Shown here piece by piece: positions 38,044 through 39,740 of a stretch of 64,000 bases of DNA; positions within the stretch are counted from its first letter, which is position 1, and every line of letters starts with the position of its first letter. Under the pieces are notes generated by a model that made no database searches, was not told where the DNA came from, and saw nothing but the letters and a program-made list of their open reading frames with translations. A program made the translations under genes and the position numbers. The stretch is from assembly GCA_021817605.1 (NCBI GenBank), contig JAKAUN010000002.1, positions 3,676-67,675 on the forward strand. Direction: 5' to 3'. The stretch is from Thermoplasmata archaeon (GTDB lineage Archaea > Thermoplasmatota > Thermoplasmata > Lutacidiplasmatales > UBA184).

Positions 38044-38272
38044 GGTGCCTCCTGTCCGCGCCGGTACAAAGGCCCTCCTTGGGAGGAGGACGACCCCCGG
38101 GTGCGGCCGCCCGAGGGACGGACACTCGCCTCGCCGAGCTCCTCGGTCGCGCTCGTCGCGATGCTTGCGGGGGAGCACGGGGGATCGAAACCGCGAGAGG
38201 AGCTTACGGTCCGTTCGGGTCGCGCCGGGTCAGGTGGCCCGCTCAAGCAGCCACACCGCGGCCGGGGCCAAC

Positions 38273-38280
38273 CTATATAG
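38273..38280 (+). promoter_or_regulatory. Putative TATA box (CTATATAG) for the RHH-ftsZ-like operon
   Basis: Strong AT-rich palindromic TATA in a local low-GC patch. The predicted transcription start near 38303 lies downstream of the track ATG 38293, which favours ATG 38335 as the true start. Confidence 0.55.
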
Positions 38281-38301
38281 GCGACCTCAGATATGTCAAT
38301 C

Positions 38302-38330
38302 GTCAGACAAAGAACCATATCTTGTCTGAC
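38302..38330 (+). promoter_or_regulatory. Perfect inverted repeat GTCAGACAA-N11-TTGTCTGAC (candidate operator)
   Basis: 9-bp perfect arms at 38302-38310 and 38322-38330. It lies between the TATA box and ATG 38335 and overlaps the predicted transcription start. Confidence 0.5.
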
Positions 38331-38334
38331 AATC

Positions 38335-38700
38335 ATGTCCGACACGTCCGAGCGGGTCACCGTCCGCATCCCACAAGAGCTGCTGGAGAAGCTCAAGCAG
38401 ATTCAGCTATCCAAGGGGACGGCGACGATCTCCGACACGATACGGGAGGGGCTCGAGCAGTACATCGAGCTCAACCTGCCCCCCCAGCACATCCGCAAGG
38501 TCGTGGTCGAGCTCTCCCGCCAGGACAACAGCCGGCTCGAGGAGTTCGTCCGGGAAGGCAACTCCGTCAGCGTCGACGACGCCGTCCGCTCGGCCGTGCG
38601 GGAGTACATCCGCAGCCGGATCGATCAGCTGGCTCCGGCGTCCCGCTCCCCGCGCCGCGAGGGCGATACCGTCGCCGCCGCCGGCTCTCCGCCGGCGTGA
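38335..38700 (+). CDS. Ribbon-helix-helix (CopG-like) DNA-binding protein with two RHH-like modules; CdrS/CdrL-like division regulator candidate
   Basis: MSDTSERVTVRIPQELLEKLKQIQLSKGTATISDTIREGLEQYI is the first RHH module. KVVVELSRQDNSRLEEFVREGNSVSVDDAVRSAVREYIR is the second. It lies directly upstream of, and overlaps, the start of the FtsZ-like gene. Confidence 0.72.
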   Translation: MSDTSERVTVRIPQELLEKLKQIQLSKGTATISDTIREGLEQYIELNLPPQHIRKVVVELSRQDNSRLEEFVREGNSVSVDDAVRSAVREYIRSRIDQLAPASRSPRREGDTVAAAGSPPA

Positions 38701-38714
38701 TAGGTCCCCTGTCC

Positions 38715-39740
38715 ATGTTCGACGGTCCGACGGCGGACGCCCTCCACGGCCTCTCGCTCGCCCCGTCGATCGCGGTCGTCGGGCTCGGAGGCGCCGGTTC
38801 GGAGGCGGTCGACGACCTCGTCAACCTCGGCCTGCCGGGGGCGCGCTCGCTCGCGGTGAACACCGACGCCCGCCACCTCAGCCACGTCCGGGCCGAGGAG
38901 CGGATCCTTCTCGGCCAGCGAGAGCTCGGCGGACGCGGGAGCGGCGGCGACCGTGCGGCGGTCCTTCGTGCCGCCGAGGACAGCCGCGAGGAGATCCTCC
39001 GAAGGCTCTCACGGTTCGAGCTCGTCTTCCTTCTCGCCGGCCTCGGAGGCGGAACCGGGAGCGCCCTGCTCCCGTTCCTCGTCAAGGAGCTCAGGAAGAC
39101 CGAGGCGCTCCCCGTGCCGGTCGTCTTCCTGCCGTTCCGCGTGGAGCTCGAGGCGAACCCCGGCCGTCGGCAGAACGTCGAGGAGACGATCGCCGAGCTC
39201 GAAGGACTCGGGGGCCTCCTCCTCGTCCTCGCCAACGAGAAGCTCCGCCGGTTCGAGTCGCTGCCGGTCCACCGCGTCTTCGGCGTGCGCAACGCCTACC
39301 TCCACGCCCTGATCGCCAACCTGGTCGACATCGTCGACCATCCCTCGCAACTCAACGTCGATCTCGCGAGCGTGAAGAGCCACCTTCGTCAGTCGGGGCT
39401 CTCGACCCTGATCATCGGCGAGGAGCACATCTCCGAGCCGGCCCGGCTCGTGCAGCGCGCCCTCTCCGATTCGCTCCTTGATTTCGAGCTCCCCTACCGG
39501 CCGAGCGCGCTCGTCCACCTGGAAGGGGGAACGAACCTCACGCTCCGCGTCCTGGACGAGGTGCTCCACACCGTTCGGGAGCACCTCGGCGAGCCGGCCC
39601 GCCTCACCTTCGGGGCGAGGATCCGCCCGGAACCGTGCGAGGTCGTCCGACTGACCGCTGTCCTCGGCGGGCTCAAGCCCCGCACCGTCCACGAGGCCGT
39701 CGCCCGGCTTCCCCCGTCGGCTCCGCTCGCCGCCCGCTAG
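38715..39740 (+). CDS. ftsZ: FtsZ/tubulin-superfamily GTPase, divergent FtsZ paralogue (FtsZ2-like locus context)
   Basis: Collinear with FtsZ: IAVVGLGGAGSEAV (T1), AVNTDARHL, LAGLGGGTGSALLP (T4 tubulin signature) and NVDLASVK (T7, second Asp replaced by Ser). There is no C-terminal tail. Only the last roughly 341 codons of ORF 37242..39740 are real. GTG 38697, overlapping the RHH stop, is an alternative start. Confidence 0.85.
   Translation: MFDGPTADALHGLSLAPSIAVVGLGGAGSEAVDDLVNLGLPGARSLAVNTDARHLSHVRAEERILLGQRELGGRGSGGDRAAVLRAAEDSREEILRRLSRFELVFLLAGLGGGTGSALLPFLVKELRKTEALPVPVVFLPFRVELEANPGRRQNVEETIAELEGLGGLLLVLANEKLRRFESLPVHRVFGVRNAYLHALIANLVDIVDHPSQLNVDLASVKSHLRQSGLSTLIIGEEHISEPARLVQRALSDSLLDFELPYRPSALVHLEGGTNLTLRVLDEVLHTVREHLGEPARLTFGARIRPEPCEVVRLTAVLGGLKPRTVHEAVARLPPSAPLAAR

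What the first reader, a model, noticed from the sequence alone, without database searches (positions are those of the whole stretch)
38273..39740. Double-RHH regulator translationally coupled to an FtsZ paralogue with a substituted T7 loop, behind a perfect palindromic operator
Seen in sequence:
- In a local low-GC patch, a strong TATA (CTATATAG, 38273-38280) is followed by a perfect 9-bp inverted repeat GTCAGACAA-N11-TTGTCTGAC (38302-38330). The repeat covers the expected transcription start, just before ATG 38335.
- The encoded 121-aa protein contains two consecutive ribbon-helix-helix-like modules (RVTVRIPQELLEKLKQI... and KVVVELSRQDNSRLEEFV...).
- Its TGA overlaps an in-frame GTG (38697) of the next gene.
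- That next gene is collinear with FtsZ: T1 GLGGAGSEAV, NTDA, T4 GLGGGTGSA.
- It reads NVDLASV where FtsZ has the NxDFAD synergy (T7) loop; the Ser codon is at 39369-39371. It also has an altered T3 (GGRGSGG) and no C-terminal linker or peptide.

Established knowledge: in haloarchaea, small RHH proteins (CdrS/CdrL) are co-transcribed with ftsZ2 and control division, and the second T7 Asp is needed for FtsZ GTP hydrolysis in the polymer.

Inference: this is a cdrS-ftsZ2-type locus in a distant lineage, with three differences:
- a fused tandem RHH, which could form a pseudo-dimer reading the two half-sites;
- an FtsZ that probably binds GTP but hydrolyses it poorly;
- an obvious autoregulatory operator.
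Basis: partly seen in the sequence, partly recalled or inferred. Interest (0 to 1): 0.62.

Follow-up and report, generated by a model that had tools for sequence, protein, structure and literature searches.

The report
Tandem CdrS regulator with degenerate FtsZ2
A soil archaeon of the class Thermoplasmata carries the known archaeal cell-division gene pair (a small DNA-binding regulator followed by the tubulin-like protein FtsZ2) in a changed form: the regulator is an internally duplicated version with a very conserved binding site on its own promoter, and the FtsZ has lost a catalytic residue and its usual tail, yet is kept by selection in more than 170 species.

Summary
The sequence facts are all correct at the stated coordinates. 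The window comes from a 70% GC soil or peat Thermoplasmata genome.

- **Operon.** It has two genes: a 121-aa ribbon-helix-helix (RHH) protein (38335-38700) and a 341-aa FtsZ-fold protein (38715-39740). The pair is adjacent in 78 of 80 related genomes.
- **Regulator.** It is a CdrS homologue with an internal duplication, giving two beta-alpha-alpha modules.
- **Palindrome.** It is the local form of an older site, GTCnGAC-N15-GTCnGAC, with subsite centres 22 bp apart. This site occurs once per locus in 163 loci from three divergent clades. It lies where transcription is expected to start.
- **FtsZ.** Synteny makes it an FtsZ2 orthologue on a very long branch. It is about 32% identical to FtsZ1, FtsZ2 and bacterial FtsZ alike. 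Its T7 loop reads NVDLA(S/T) in all 120 relatives, whereas 118 of 118 other FtsZ2-type proteins keep the Asp. Several other universal GTPase-motif residues and the GID tail are also changed.

- The conserved FtsZ start is ATG 38715, after a 12-18 nt spacer. It is not the overlapping GTG.
- One RHH unit cannot span both subsites.
- A 9-bp palindrome alone is not unusual in this window.

Verdict: a new variant of the known cdrS-ftsZ2 system. Loss of GTPase activity is inferred, not shown.

The parts
38273..38280 (+). TATA box (CTATATAG; clade consensus TTCATATA C/G)
   Evidence: Read. It is a high-information block in 76 related loci, about 22 nt upstream of the palindrome.
38290..38301 (+). Conserved promoter-proximal block GATATGTCAATC, between the TATA box and the expected transcription start
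   Evidence: Nearly invariant in the soil clade, with no 3-nt periodicity. The ATG inside it (38293) is not a start codon: 1-nt indels in L010, L040 and L035 break the frame.
38302..38310 (+). Left arm of the inverted repeat (GTCAGACAA). The core subsite GTCnGAC is 38302-38308.
   Evidence: GTC and GAC are invariant in 74 of 74 distinct operators from three clades.
38322..38330 (+). Right arm (TTGTCTGAC). The core subsite GTCnGAC is 38324-38330, with its centre 22 bp from the centre of the left subsite.
   Evidence: The site occurs once per locus in 163 loci, always GTCnGAC-N15-GTCnGAC.
38335..38700 (+). Gene for the 121-aa tandem RHH regulator (a CdrS homologue). Module 1 spans residues 6-47 (38350-38475), with strand R7-I12 at 38353-38370. 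Module 2 spans residues 54-99 (38494-38631). The R/P/E-rich tail spans residues 100-121.
   Evidence: Pfam RHH_1 E=1e-7. NCBIfam CdrS matches residues 56-97. hhalign aligns module 1 to module 2 in register, E=6e-4. The module HMMs cross-hit each other and CdrS. The AlphaFold2 (AF2) model has helices at 14-27, 32-47, 62-73 and 80-99. dN/dS is 0.08-0.18.
38701..38714 (+). 14-nt intercistronic spacer
   Evidence: The spacer is 12-18 nt in 67 loci, usually G-rich and Shine-Dalgarno-like. The window's own spacer lacks a clear Shine-Dalgarno motif.
38715..39740 (+). Gene for the 341-aa divergent FtsZ2-derived protein
   Evidence: Pfam Tubulin plus FtsZ_C. TIGR00065 scores 190 bits, below the 295 cut-off. 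The AF2 model has pLDDT 84 and pTM 0.84. Its best structural matches are FtsZ, with TM up to 0.81/0.90. dN/dS is 0.21-0.39.
38931..38954 (+). T3 loop, GRGSGGDR (canonical G-L/M/R-GAGG-D/N-P)
   Evidence: Invariant in the family. P80R and G83V replace universally conserved residues.
39039..39065 (+). T4 signature, GLGGGTGSA (canonical GGGTG-T/S-G)
   Evidence: T116S and G117A are fixed in the family.
39354..39371 (+). T7 loop, NVDLAS. The Ser codon 39369-39371 stands in place of the second (catalytic) Asp.
   Evidence: phmmer alignment to 1W5E and 1FSZ. The position is Ser in 111 and Thr in 9 of 120 homologues. It is Asp in 138 of 146 representatives and in 118 of 118 FtsZ2-type proteins.
39684..39737 (+). 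Short C-terminal tail (residues 324-341) with no GID motif. Its end is semi-conserved (P-L/V-x-A-R/G).
   Evidence: Related clades end in ...GIDMIG or ...SISAVG type peptides.

Best explanation
This is the Thermoplasmatota version of the archaeal cdrS-ftsZ2 cell-division operon.

**Transcript.** A single promoter (TATA at 38273-38280) drives a two-gene transcript that most likely starts at about 38300-38303. That estimate is an inference from TATA spacing.

**Regulator.** The first product is a CdrS homologue whose RHH unit has been duplicated in tandem. Module 1 carries the invariant R-x-T-x-R strand. I propose that it pairs with module 1 of a second chain to form a symmetric two-stranded ribbon that reads one palindromic GTCnGAC subsite. 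Two such units sit on the same face of the DNA, 22 bp apart, held together through the module-2 pairs. This is a NikR-like or MetJ-like geometry. Because the site covers about +1 to +29, occupancy would block RNA polymerase recruitment and repress the operon. That would buffer the level of the FtsZ protein.

**FtsZ-fold protein.** The second product is a fast-evolving descendant of FtsZ2. It keeps the FtsZ fold and most nucleotide-contact motifs. It has lost the second T7 Asp, the T3 Pro, the last Gly of the signature motif, an H7 Asp and the GID tail. I infer that it still binds GTP but cannot activate hydrolysis in the subunit below it. It would then form slow-turnover filaments, or cap or stabilise them, rather than treadmill.

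**Shown.** Anatomy, conservation, homology, synteny, fold and purifying selection.

**Inferred.** The transcription start, binding of the RHH to the site, repression, stoichiometry, GTP binding and the loss of GTPase.
For: **Origin and synteny**
- The organism is a Thermoplasmata archaeon. 172 species-level genomes carry the RHH, and the RHH gene is followed by the FtsZ-like gene in 78 of 80 loci; the other two end at contig edges.

**Operator**
- The half-sites are invariant while the spacer and third codon positions vary (pS 0.4-0.5 in the flanking genes).
- The site is unique in the window and occurs once per locus. Half-sites elsewhere number 25 against about 20 expected.
- GTCnGAC-N15-GTCnGAC recurs with the same 22-bp centre spacing in two other clades whose RHH is only 37-52% identical.
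- The central n is unpaired in 14 of 74 distinct sites. That fits a protein that does not read the dyad base.

**RHH protein**
- Pfam and NCBIfam hits, homology between the two modules and hits to CdrS (module 1 E=4e-7, module 2 E=3e-5 against four sequences).
- R7, T9 and R11 are invariant across clades.

**FtsZ-like protein**
- Confident FtsZ fold and the T7 alignment.
- Family-wide Ser/Thr at the T7 position, which is rare elsewhere.
- Seven substitutions at universally conserved positions, plus two insertions.
- An isolated long branch.

**Orthology chain**
- A Natronoplasma-type locus has a 106-aa tandem RHH and an FtsZ with NLDFND.
- That FtsZ is 47% identical to P0458, which sits in a CdrL_M - RHH_1/DUF7120 - FtsZ locus.

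**Established knowledge**
- cdrS and ftsZ2 are co-transcribed and widely syntenic (PMC7439475). ftsZ2 is often next to parD-like genes, and archaeal FtsZ tails carry a GID motif that binds SepF (PMC8178401).
- T7 Asp mutants of FtsZ1 and FtsZ2 are non-functional in H. volcanii (bioRxiv 10.1101/2020.06.04.133736).
- Several Thermoplasmata have FtsZ without SepF or PRC-barrel proteins, or lack FtsZ altogether (PMC10936438).
Against: - No binding, transcript or enzyme data exist.
- The AF2 model of the RHH is of low confidence (pLDDT 59, no strands modelled), so the fold and pairing mode of module 2 are unproven.
- Symmetric changes in the inner part of the arms (AA/TT, GA/TC, GTA/TAC) fit an RNA or DNA hairpin as well as a dyad-symmetric protein. 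The 5' leader would fold at -13.5 kcal/mol, z = -3.2.
- Haloarchaeal CdrS is described as an activator, not a repressor (PMC7439475, PMC8406309).
- Sequence similarity and a neighbour-joining tree cannot place the FtsZ with FtsZ2 rather than FtsZ1.
- Ser or Thr at T7 together with the retained first Asp might keep some GTPase activity.
- dN/dS of 0.2-0.4 is high for an FtsZ and could mean partly relaxed constraint.
- Whether the lineage also has FtsZ1, SepF or ESCRT genes could not be checked.
Confidence: 0.6

Rival explanations
1. The inverted repeat acts mainly as an RNA element. It would be a 9-bp stem-loop at the extreme 5' end of the leader, four bases before the AUG. It would control mRNA stability or translation initiation rather than serve as a protein-binding operator. 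It could also do this in addition to being an operator.
For: - The leader folds at -13.5 kcal/mol, z = -3.2; other soil loci reach -24 kcal/mol, z = -4.9.
- The arm positions next to the core covary between clades: A-U 36, G-C 26 and G-U 6 at one pair, and A-U 57 and U-A 15 at the next.
- L083 carries a compensatory swap at the centre.
- The soil clade has no room for a Shine-Dalgarno motif between the stem and the AUG.
Against: - Six of nine stem pairs are invariant in sequence, not just in pairing, across three clades whose proteins are 37-52% identical. An RNA stem would be expected to drift.
- The central pair is broken in 19% of distinct sequences.
- In L086 the minimum-free-energy fold does not use the stem and the z-score is -0.3.
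- A DNA-binding protein with an invariant R-x-T-x-R strand is encoded next door.
- No Rfam family matches.
- Symmetric change is equally expected for a dyad-symmetric protein site.
Confidence: 0.2
2. The tandem RHH works as a transcriptional activator or a global cell-cycle regulator, as reported for haloarchaeal CdrS. Its main targets would lie elsewhere in the genome, and the promoter site would be only one of many.
For: - CdrS activates ftsZ2 and other division genes in Halobacterium and Haloferax (PMC7439475, PMC8406309, as summarised in PMC9976892).
- Both modules are homologous to CdrS.
- Only 64 kb of this genome and about 20 kb of each relative could be searched.
Against: - The site lies downstream of the TATA box, over the expected start. 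In archaea that is the usual position for repressors (established knowledge).
- No second full site occurs in 1.25 Mb of related loci, and half-sites are at chance level.
- There is no second copy in the window.
Confidence: 0.15
3. The FtsZ-like protein is a fully working division FtsZ. Ser or Thr at T7 and the other changes would be compensated, and GTP turnover and ring dynamics would be essentially normal.
For: - The fold is intact.
- The first T7 Asp, the T7 Asn, the T1 glycines, NTD, the T5 PF..E and the T6 Asn are retained.
- The gene is under purifying selection and is universally kept with its regulator.
Against: - The second T7 Asp is kept in 118 of 118 FtsZ2-type and 138 of 146 representative proteins. 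Its replacement abolishes function in H. volcanii FtsZ1 and FtsZ2 (10.1101/2020.06.04.133736).
- Seven universally conserved residues are changed together.
- The GID tail needed for SepF binding is missing (PMC8178401).
- The family is more distant from every FtsZ (about 32%) than FtsZ1, FtsZ2 and bacterial FtsZ are from one another (43-50%).
Confidence: 0.2
4. The pair is a DNA-segregation cassette of the TubR/TubZ kind. The RHH would be a centromere-binding protein, the palindrome its centromere, and the tubulin-like protein the motor.
For: The layout is formally similar: a small DNA-binding protein gene and a tubulin-superfamily gene lie behind a repeated site. RHH proteins serve as centromere binders in other partition systems (own knowledge).
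Against: - The context is chromosomal and housekeeping in all clades, next to ribosomal protein and ndk genes in two of them.
- There is a single two-subsite element, not an iteron array.
- The closest folds are FtsZ, not TubZ.
- The pair is homologous to CdrS and FtsZ2.
- A defective T7 loop argues against a treadmilling motor.
Confidence: 0.04

Closest known systems
CdrS-FtsZ2 (with CdrL) of Halobacteria (Darnell 2020, PMC7439475; Liao 2021, PMC8406309)
   Same: - A small RHH regulator gene lies immediately upstream of, and in the same direction as, ftsZ2.
- The RHH modules are homologous to CdrS.
- The promoter has a TATA box followed by a palindrome at the start region; L091 has GTAAGAC-N5-GTCTTAC.
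   Different: - The regulator is a tandem duplicate of 104-121 aa rather than one RHH of about 60-85 aa.
- There is no cdrL gene.
- The site is GTCnGAC-N15-GTCnGAC.
- In the soil clade the FtsZ2 has lost the T7 Asp and the GID tail.
- Repression is proposed here, whereas activation is reported for CdrS.
NikR, MetJ and Arc type RHH operators
   Same: - A two-stranded ribbon from two RHH units reads a short palindromic subsite.
- Two such units bind subsites on one face of the DNA.
- NikR half-sites (GTATGA-N16-TCATAC, own knowledge) have the same 22-bp spacing. The best NCBIfam hit of module 1 is a NikR-type model.
   Different: - There is no ACT-like metal-binding domain. Here a second RHH-like module would take the bridging role.
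- Binding has not been tested.
Natural single-chain or tandem RHH proteins (F-plasmid TraY, Agrobacterium VirC2; own knowledge)
   Same: Two RHH repeats lie in one polypeptide.
   Different: - Those are bacterial relaxosome or T-DNA accessory proteins that act as monomeric pseudo-dimers on asymmetric sites.
- Here the subsites are palindromic and the two strands are unequal. That favours pairing between chains.
Nitrosopumilus maritimus FtsZ (PMC3684127)
   Same: An archaeal FtsZ homologue that lacks the canonical T7 NVDFAD loop, in a lineage that has an alternative (ESCRT/Cdv) machinery.
   Different: - The thaumarchaeal protein has also lost the GGGTGTG signature and does not polymerise.
- The protein here keeps GGGTGSA, the first T7 Asp and a confident FtsZ fold.
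Beta-tubulin T7 (Lys in place of the catalytic Glu of alpha-tubulin) and E. coli FtsZ D212 mutants (own knowledge)
   Same: A substitution of the T7 acidic residue leaves nucleotide binding intact but prevents hydrolysis at the interface it closes.
   Different: No partner FtsZ has been identified in this lineage, and no biochemistry is available.

Membership tests
FtsZ (tubulin/FtsZ superfamily, FtsZ fold) | N-terminal GTPase domain plus FtsZ C-terminal domain | tested here: met
   Pfam PF00091 E=1.9e-27 and PF12327 E=1.1e-10. The AF2 model has pLDDT 84. Foldseek's top 50 matches are all FtsZ.
FtsZ (tubulin/FtsZ superfamily, FtsZ fold) | Equivalog-level score against TIGR00065 (cut-off 295 bits) | tested here: not met
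   The score is 190.3 bits.
FtsZ (tubulin/FtsZ superfamily, FtsZ fold) | Signature motif GGGTG(T/S)G | tested here: not met
   The motif reads GGGTGSA. The final Gly to Ala change is fixed in the family.
FtsZ (tubulin/FtsZ superfamily, FtsZ fold) | T7 synergy loop N-x-D-x-x-D with the second Asp | tested here: not met
   The loop reads NVDLAS. The position is Ser or Thr in 120 of 120 relatives.
FtsZ (tubulin/FtsZ superfamily, FtsZ fold) | GTP-dependent polymerisation and GTPase activity | not testable with these tools
   This needs purified protein.
Archaeal FtsZ2 | Placement in the FtsZ2 clade in a phylogeny | tested here: inconclusive
   - The family is 30-36% identical to the FtsZ1, FtsZ2 and bacterial references alike.
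- The neighbour-joining attachment is unsupported; the best bootstrap partner reaches 32%.
- The only soft signature is GRG-x-GGD in T3, shared with Thermoplasmatota FtsZ2.
Archaeal FtsZ2 | Gene immediately downstream of a cdrS/parD-like RHH gene | tested here: met
   Adjacent in 78 of 80 loci. The same tandem RHH precedes intact FtsZ2 in two other clades. A haloarchaeal reference locus is shown.
Archaeal FtsZ2 | C-terminal GID peptide that binds SepF | tested here: not met
   The tail ends ...PPSAPLAAR with no GID motif. The sediment clade keeps ...GIDMIG.
CdrS | RHH DNA-binding fold | tested here: met
   For module 1, RHH_1 E=1e-7. For module 2 the evidence is only weak: RHH_8 E=0.04, RHH_1 E=0.07, and the CdrS model on residues 56-97.
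CdrS | Curated model score (NF058555, cut-off 100 bits) and single-domain size of about 60 aa | tested here: not met
   The score is 22.7 bits. The protein is 121 aa with two modules.
CdrS | Regulates ftsZ2 and cell division | not testable with these tools
   Only synteny and the conserved promoter site are available.
CetZ | Match to CetZ-type models or structures rather than FtsZ | tested here: not met
   The only NCBIfam hit is the FtsZ model. The listed structural matches are FtsZ, not CetZ or tubulin.

The most novel reading that the evidence does not exclude
In this large soil Thermoplasmata clade, FtsZ2 has become a naturally hydrolysis-dead subunit of the tubulin superfamily. Its T7 loop can no longer activate GTP hydrolysis in the subunit it caps.

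It would then either build static filaments or, if an intact FtsZ exists elsewhere in the genome, form mixed polymers in which every second interface is non-catalytic. That is the same logic as the alpha/beta-tubulin dimer, arising independently.

Its dose would be set by a self-repressing tandem CdrS that assembles as a closed tetramer on two subsites two helical turns apart.
Probability: 0.2. Interest if true: 0.7.

Novelty: new variant of a known kind. Interest (0 to 1): 0.5.

Why it matters
The cdrS-ftsZ2 pair is one of only two archaeal cell-cycle regulatory modules described so far. Its DNA site and its mode of autoregulation outside haloarchaea are unknown.

This locus offers three things:
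- **A binding site to test.** GTCnGAC-N15-GTCnGAC is a sharply defined candidate site, conserved across three clades.
- **A natural tandem RHH.** It could show how CdrS-type proteins assemble on DNA.
- **A natural FtsZ2 mutant series.** Intact T7 and GID tail in two clades, both lost in a third, in a class where FtsZ-based division is already known to be eroding (PMC10936438).

It could therefore show what FtsZ2 does when GTP turnover and SepF anchoring are removed. If the FtsZ proves to be an ordinary enzyme, the finding reduces to a lineage-specific variant of a known operon.

Tried and rejected
1. **AlphaFold2 of the RHH** with 120 close homologues gave pLDDT 59, pTM 0.29 and no strands. 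It cannot decide between an intramolecular pseudo-dimer and pairing between chains. No fold search was run on it. More divergent homologues could not be added under the tool rules.
2. **Placing the FtsZ by distance methods.** Pairwise identity, a neighbour-joining tree with 100 bootstraps and a signature-column analysis all failed. The family is equidistant from all groups and attaches to other long branches.
3. **Looking for a second FtsZ.**
   - None occurs in the 64-kb window or within +/-10 kb in 80 related loci.
   - Matching contig lengths among the hits found none.
   - The look-ups only showed that other Thermoplasmata FtsZs (Ca. Sysuiplasma NVSYGD; HLF06598.1 IQIDFSD) are also divergent, and these come from other lineages.
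   - The question stays open.
4. **Supplementary tables of Darnell 2020** were not held. I could not see whether Thermoplasmata loci were already listed there.
5. **Rfam** has no family for the leader. The sigma-70 promoter and terminator scans are irrelevant to archaea and found nothing.
6. **The 135-aa reading of the RHH gene** from ATG 38293 was rejected, because of frame-breaking indels and the absence of codon periodicity.
7. **The GTG 38697 start** was rejected as the conserved start.
8. **A TubR/TubZ-like partition cassette** was considered and rejected on context and homology.
9. **Pfam scan of about 40 window genes** found only housekeeping functions and no SepF, Snf7/Vps4 or PRC-barrel genes.


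Full report
**What is in the window.** The window has 70.7% GC. Its genes are ordinary archaeal housekeeping genes: proteasome alpha, UvrA, topoisomerase I, EF-1alpha, ribosomal proteins, pelota and DnaJ.

At 38266-38334 the GC content falls to 0.435. The lowest-GC 69-nt stretch of the whole window starts at 38270. Inside it lie:
- CTATATAG at 38273-38280;
- the perfect inverted repeat GTCAGACAA-N11-TTGTCTGAC at 38302-38330;
- an ATG at 38335.

The ORF from 38335 to TGA 38698-38700 encodes 121 aa. Pfam RHH_1 matches residues 7-45 with E=1e-7.

The next ORF ends at 39740 and matches Pfam Tubulin (E=1.9e-27) and FtsZ_C (E=1.1e-10). It reaches only 190 bits on the NCBI FtsZ equivalog model, whose cut-off is 295. 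phmmer against the PDB puts M. jannaschii FtsZ1 first and aligns the window's lNVDLASVKS with iNVDFADVKA. The second T7 Asp is therefore a Ser, with codon AGC at 39369-39371.

One caution applies. A perfect 9-bp inverted repeat with a 3-20 nt loop is not unusual in this GC-rich window: 27 are seen against 21 +/- 5.5 in Markov-1 simulations. The repeat is significant only because of what follows.

**Relatives.** Both proteins have hundreds of close homologues, and those with names are called Thermoplasmata archaeon. A scan of one genome per species found the RHH in 172 genomes, all Thermoplasmata MAGs from soil, peat and similar samples. In 78 of the 80 loci fetched, the FtsZ-like gene follows the RHH gene directly. 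The other two loci end at a contig edge.

Selection estimates (dS is probably saturated):

| Gene | dN/dS |
|---|---|
| RHH | 0.08-0.18 |
| FtsZ-like | 0.21-0.39 |

Both genes are under purifying selection. The regulator is constrained more strongly than the FtsZ.

**Start codons and coupling.** Many database entries call the RHH gene as 135 aa from ATG 38293. That reading would put the palindrome inside the ORF. It is wrong for two reasons. L010, L040 and L035 have 1-nt indels between the two ATGs. The stretch also shows no 3-nt periodicity, whereas periodicity begins exactly at 38335.

For the FtsZ gene, GTG 38697 does overlap the TGA. In 67 loci, however, the conserved N-terminus starts at an ATG 12-18 nt after the RHH stop, usually behind a G-rich Shine-Dalgarno-like run. 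Gene callers also use ATG 38715. The genes are therefore tightly linked and almost certainly co-transcribed, but coupling by stop-start overlap is not a conserved feature.

**The site upstream.** In 76 distinct soil-clade loci, the information profile shows the following, in order:
- a TATA block (TTCATATA C/G);
- about 9 variable bases;
- a nearly invariant GATATGTCAATC-GTCAGACAAAG;
- a variable spacer;
- an invariant TTGTCTGAC;
- four variable bases and the ATG.

Synonymous sites in the flanking genes differ at 40-50%, so the non-coding block is under strong constraint. The full repeat occurs once per locus in 78 of 83 loci, always at this promoter. Half-sites elsewhere are at chance level, 25 against about 20 expected in 1.25 Mb. 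The window has no other copy.

Each arm contains a 7-bp palindrome, GTCnGAC, and the two centres are 22 bp apart. This core is much older than the soil clade:

| Clade | Tandem RHH | FtsZ | Site |
|---|---|---|---|
| Low-GC Natronoplasma-type Thermoplasmatota | 106 aa | 333-336 aa, T7 NLDFND | GTCnGAC-N15-GTCnGAC |
| Lake and wetland sediment metagenomes | 104 aa | about 350-375 aa where the ORF is complete, T7 NLDFAD, tails such as ...GIDMIG | GTCTGAC-N15-GTCGGAC |

In all, 163 loci carry exactly one such site. In 74 distinct sites the six GTC/GAC pairs never vary. The two positions inside them change symmetrically between clades (AA/TT, GA/TC, GTA/TAC). The central n fails to pair in 14 of the 74.

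With an archaeal TATA box centred about 26-27 nt upstream of the start (established knowledge), transcription should begin at about 38300-38303. The site would then cover roughly +1 to +29.

**The regulator.** Evidence for a second RHH-like module at residues about 54-99:
- Its only Pfam hits are RHH_8 (E=0.04) and RHH_1 (E=0.07).
- NCBIfam's haloarchaeal CdrS model aligns to residues 56-97.
- hhalign aligns module 1 to module 2 in register over 42 columns, E=6e-4.
- HMMs of either module hit the other module of the Natronoplasma-type proteins (E about 1e-3 to 4e-7) and hit a haloarchaeal CdrS. Module 1 scores E=4e-7 and module 2 E=3e-5, in a database of four sequences.
- CdrS reads ERVTLRIP...SEAIRSAVRDML. 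It resembles the strand of module 1 and the second helix of module 2.
- AlphaFold2 gave a low-confidence model (pLDDT 59), but with helices at 14-27, 32-47, 62-73 and 80-99. That is the pattern of two beta-alpha-alpha units.

I conclude that the protein is a CdrS homologue with a tandem duplication. This is well supported at the sequence level and unproven at the structural level.

R7, T9 and R11 in strand 1 are invariant across all three clades. Strand 2 offers K55, V/T57 and E/D59. A ribbon made of strand 1 plus strand 2 would be asymmetric, yet the subsites are palindromic. An RHH ribbon also reads one major groove, so it cannot span 22 bp. The better fit is two symmetric module 1-module 1 ribbons, one per subsite, bridged by module 2 pairs. 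This geometry is known from NikR, whose half-sites have the same spacing (own knowledge). It remains an inference.

**The FtsZ-like protein.**
- *Fold.* AlphaFold2 gives a confident FtsZ fold (pLDDT 84, pTM 0.84). The 50 matches listed from the PDB are all FtsZ (M. jannaschii FtsZ1; S. aureus FtsZ with TM 0.81/0.90, rmsd 2.3-2.4 Å; Odinarchaeota FtsZ1), not CetZ or tubulin.
- *T7 loop.* Within the family the loop reads N-V-D-L-A/S-S/T in 120 of 120 sequences.
- *Isolation.* A full HMMER scan of 1.84 billion cluster representatives shows how isolated the family is. It has one 50% cluster, some fragments and one divergent member (P0249, also NVDLAS). Everything else is at most about 36% identical.
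- *Rarity of the change.* Of 146 representatives, 138 have Asp at the second T7 position. So do 118 of 118 FtsZ2-type proteins.
- *Distance.* The family is 30-36% identical to FtsZ1, FtsZ2 and bacterial FtsZ alike, whereas those groups are 43-50% identical to each other.
- *Changed universal residues.* Positions conserved in all three groups but changed and fixed here are T1 N30E, T3 P80R and G83V, T4 T116S and G117A, A155V, G158T, H7 D193N and T7 D219S. There are also two small insertions.
- *Retained residues.* The T1 glycines, NTD, the PF..E of T5, the T6 Asn, the T7 Asn and the first T7 Asp are all kept.
- *Tail.* It is about 18 aa, lacks the archaeal GID motif, and ends in a semi-conserved P-L/V-x-A-R/G.

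**Orthology.** Distance trees cannot place the family: the attachment point has no bootstrap support and is drawn to other long branches. Synteny does place it. The Natronoplasma-type FtsZ follows a clear homologue of the window's tandem RHH. It is 47% identical to P0458, which sits in a locus reading CdrL_M - RHH_1/DUF7120 (85 aa) - FtsZ. That is the haloarchaeal cdrL-cdrS-ftsZ2 arrangement.

The literature already reports that cdrS-ftsZ2 synteny is widespread in archaea (PMC7439475) and that ftsZ2 often sits beside parD-like genes (PMC8178401). The window therefore holds the cdrS-ftsZ2 locus of this lineage, with a strongly derived FtsZ2.

**How it most likely works.** The regulator binds its own promoter at the start site and represses the two-gene transcript. 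The FtsZ2 derivative binds GTP but, lacking the T7 Asp, cannot trigger hydrolysis in the neighbouring subunit. It has also lost the SepF-binding tail.

This fits what is known of the class. Several Thermoplasmata keep FtsZ without SepF or PRC-barrel partners. Some have lost FtsZ altogether. A minimal ESCRT system is suspected to take part in their division (PMC10936438). A precedent for a degenerate archaeal FtsZ is that of Nitrosopumilus, which lacks the T7 loop and does not polymerise (PMC3684127).

Continued purifying selection and the universally kept regulator argue that the protein still has a dose-sensitive function.

**Rivals.**
- *RNA hairpin.* The repeat could act as a 5'-terminal RNA hairpin: -13.5 kcal/mol, z = -3.2, with symmetric covariation. 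Sequence invariance of the core across clades, the frequent central mismatch and the weak fold in L086 make this secondary. It is not excluded and may coexist with the operator.
- *Activator.* The regulator could be an activator, like haloarchaeal CdrS.
- *Working GTPase.* The FtsZ could retain useful GTPase activity.
- *Partition cassette.* A TubR/TubZ-like reading is very unlikely given the context and homology.

**Limits.** Nothing here shows binding, transcription start, GTP binding or GTPase loss. I could not establish whether the lineage has FtsZ1, SepF or ESCRT genes. The collection scans were exhausted, and only +/-10 kb around each locus can be read.

**Verdict.** This is a new variant of a known system, of moderate interest. 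The comparative series and the sharply defined site make it readily testable.

Noticed in passing
window 38293-38334: Many public entries annotate the RHH gene as 135 aa from ATG 38293. That reading would translate the operator. Frame-breaking 1-nt indels in L010, L040 and L035 and the absence of codon periodicity show it is a mis-annotation.
   Followed up: yes
L091 1127-1178: A haloarchaeal cdrL-cdrS-ftsZ2 locus has TTTTATAA followed about 30 nt later by the palindrome GTAAGAC-N5-GTCTTAC in front of cdrS. The promoter layout matches the one here, but the site is different.
   Followed up: partly
L115-L171 (lake and wetland sediment metagenome contigs): A third clade has a 104-aa tandem RHH, the site GTCTGAC-N15-GTCGGAC, and an FtsZ2 with an intact NLDFAD loop and GID-type tails. 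It is useful as the unaltered comparison.
   Followed up: yes
window 39557-39588: An inverted repeat with 11-bp arms (CGAGGTGCTCC...GGAGCACCTCG) lies inside the FtsZ-like ORF.
   Followed up: no
window 39737-39740: The FtsZ-like stop codon overlaps by 4 nt the stop of a convergent gene for a putative SAM-dependent RNA methyltransferase (PF04013). A DUF6015 gene follows on the same strand as the methyltransferase gene.
   Followed up: partly
L005, L024, L026, L057 and L069 (OY970259.1): In long-read assemblies the FtsZ-like ORF is split into several tblastn pieces. These could be sequencing errors or real pseudogenes. It matters because L069 is a complete chromosome.
   Followed up: no
L005/L024, L056/L059 and L073/L080: Three MAGs carry the operon on two different contigs each. 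This could be strain mixtures in the bins or real duplications.
   Followed up: no
P0245-P0247 (not in the window): These proteins of 744-840 aa each have two matched FtsZ-like stretches. They are the best non-family hits by summed score.
   Followed up: no
P0267/P0521 (Ca. Sysuiplasma superficiale) and P0334/P0541 (Thermoplasmata archaeon HLF06598.1): Other Thermoplasmata FtsZs also have unusual T7 loops (NVSYGD and IQIDFSD) and short tails. Active-site drift of FtsZ may be common in this class.
   Followed up: partly
window 38632-38697 (RHH residues 100-121): The soil clade alone has a C-terminal tail on the regulator, with a conserved RREG motif and a Pro-rich end. The tail is absent from the two other clades. 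Its function is unknown.
   Followed up: no
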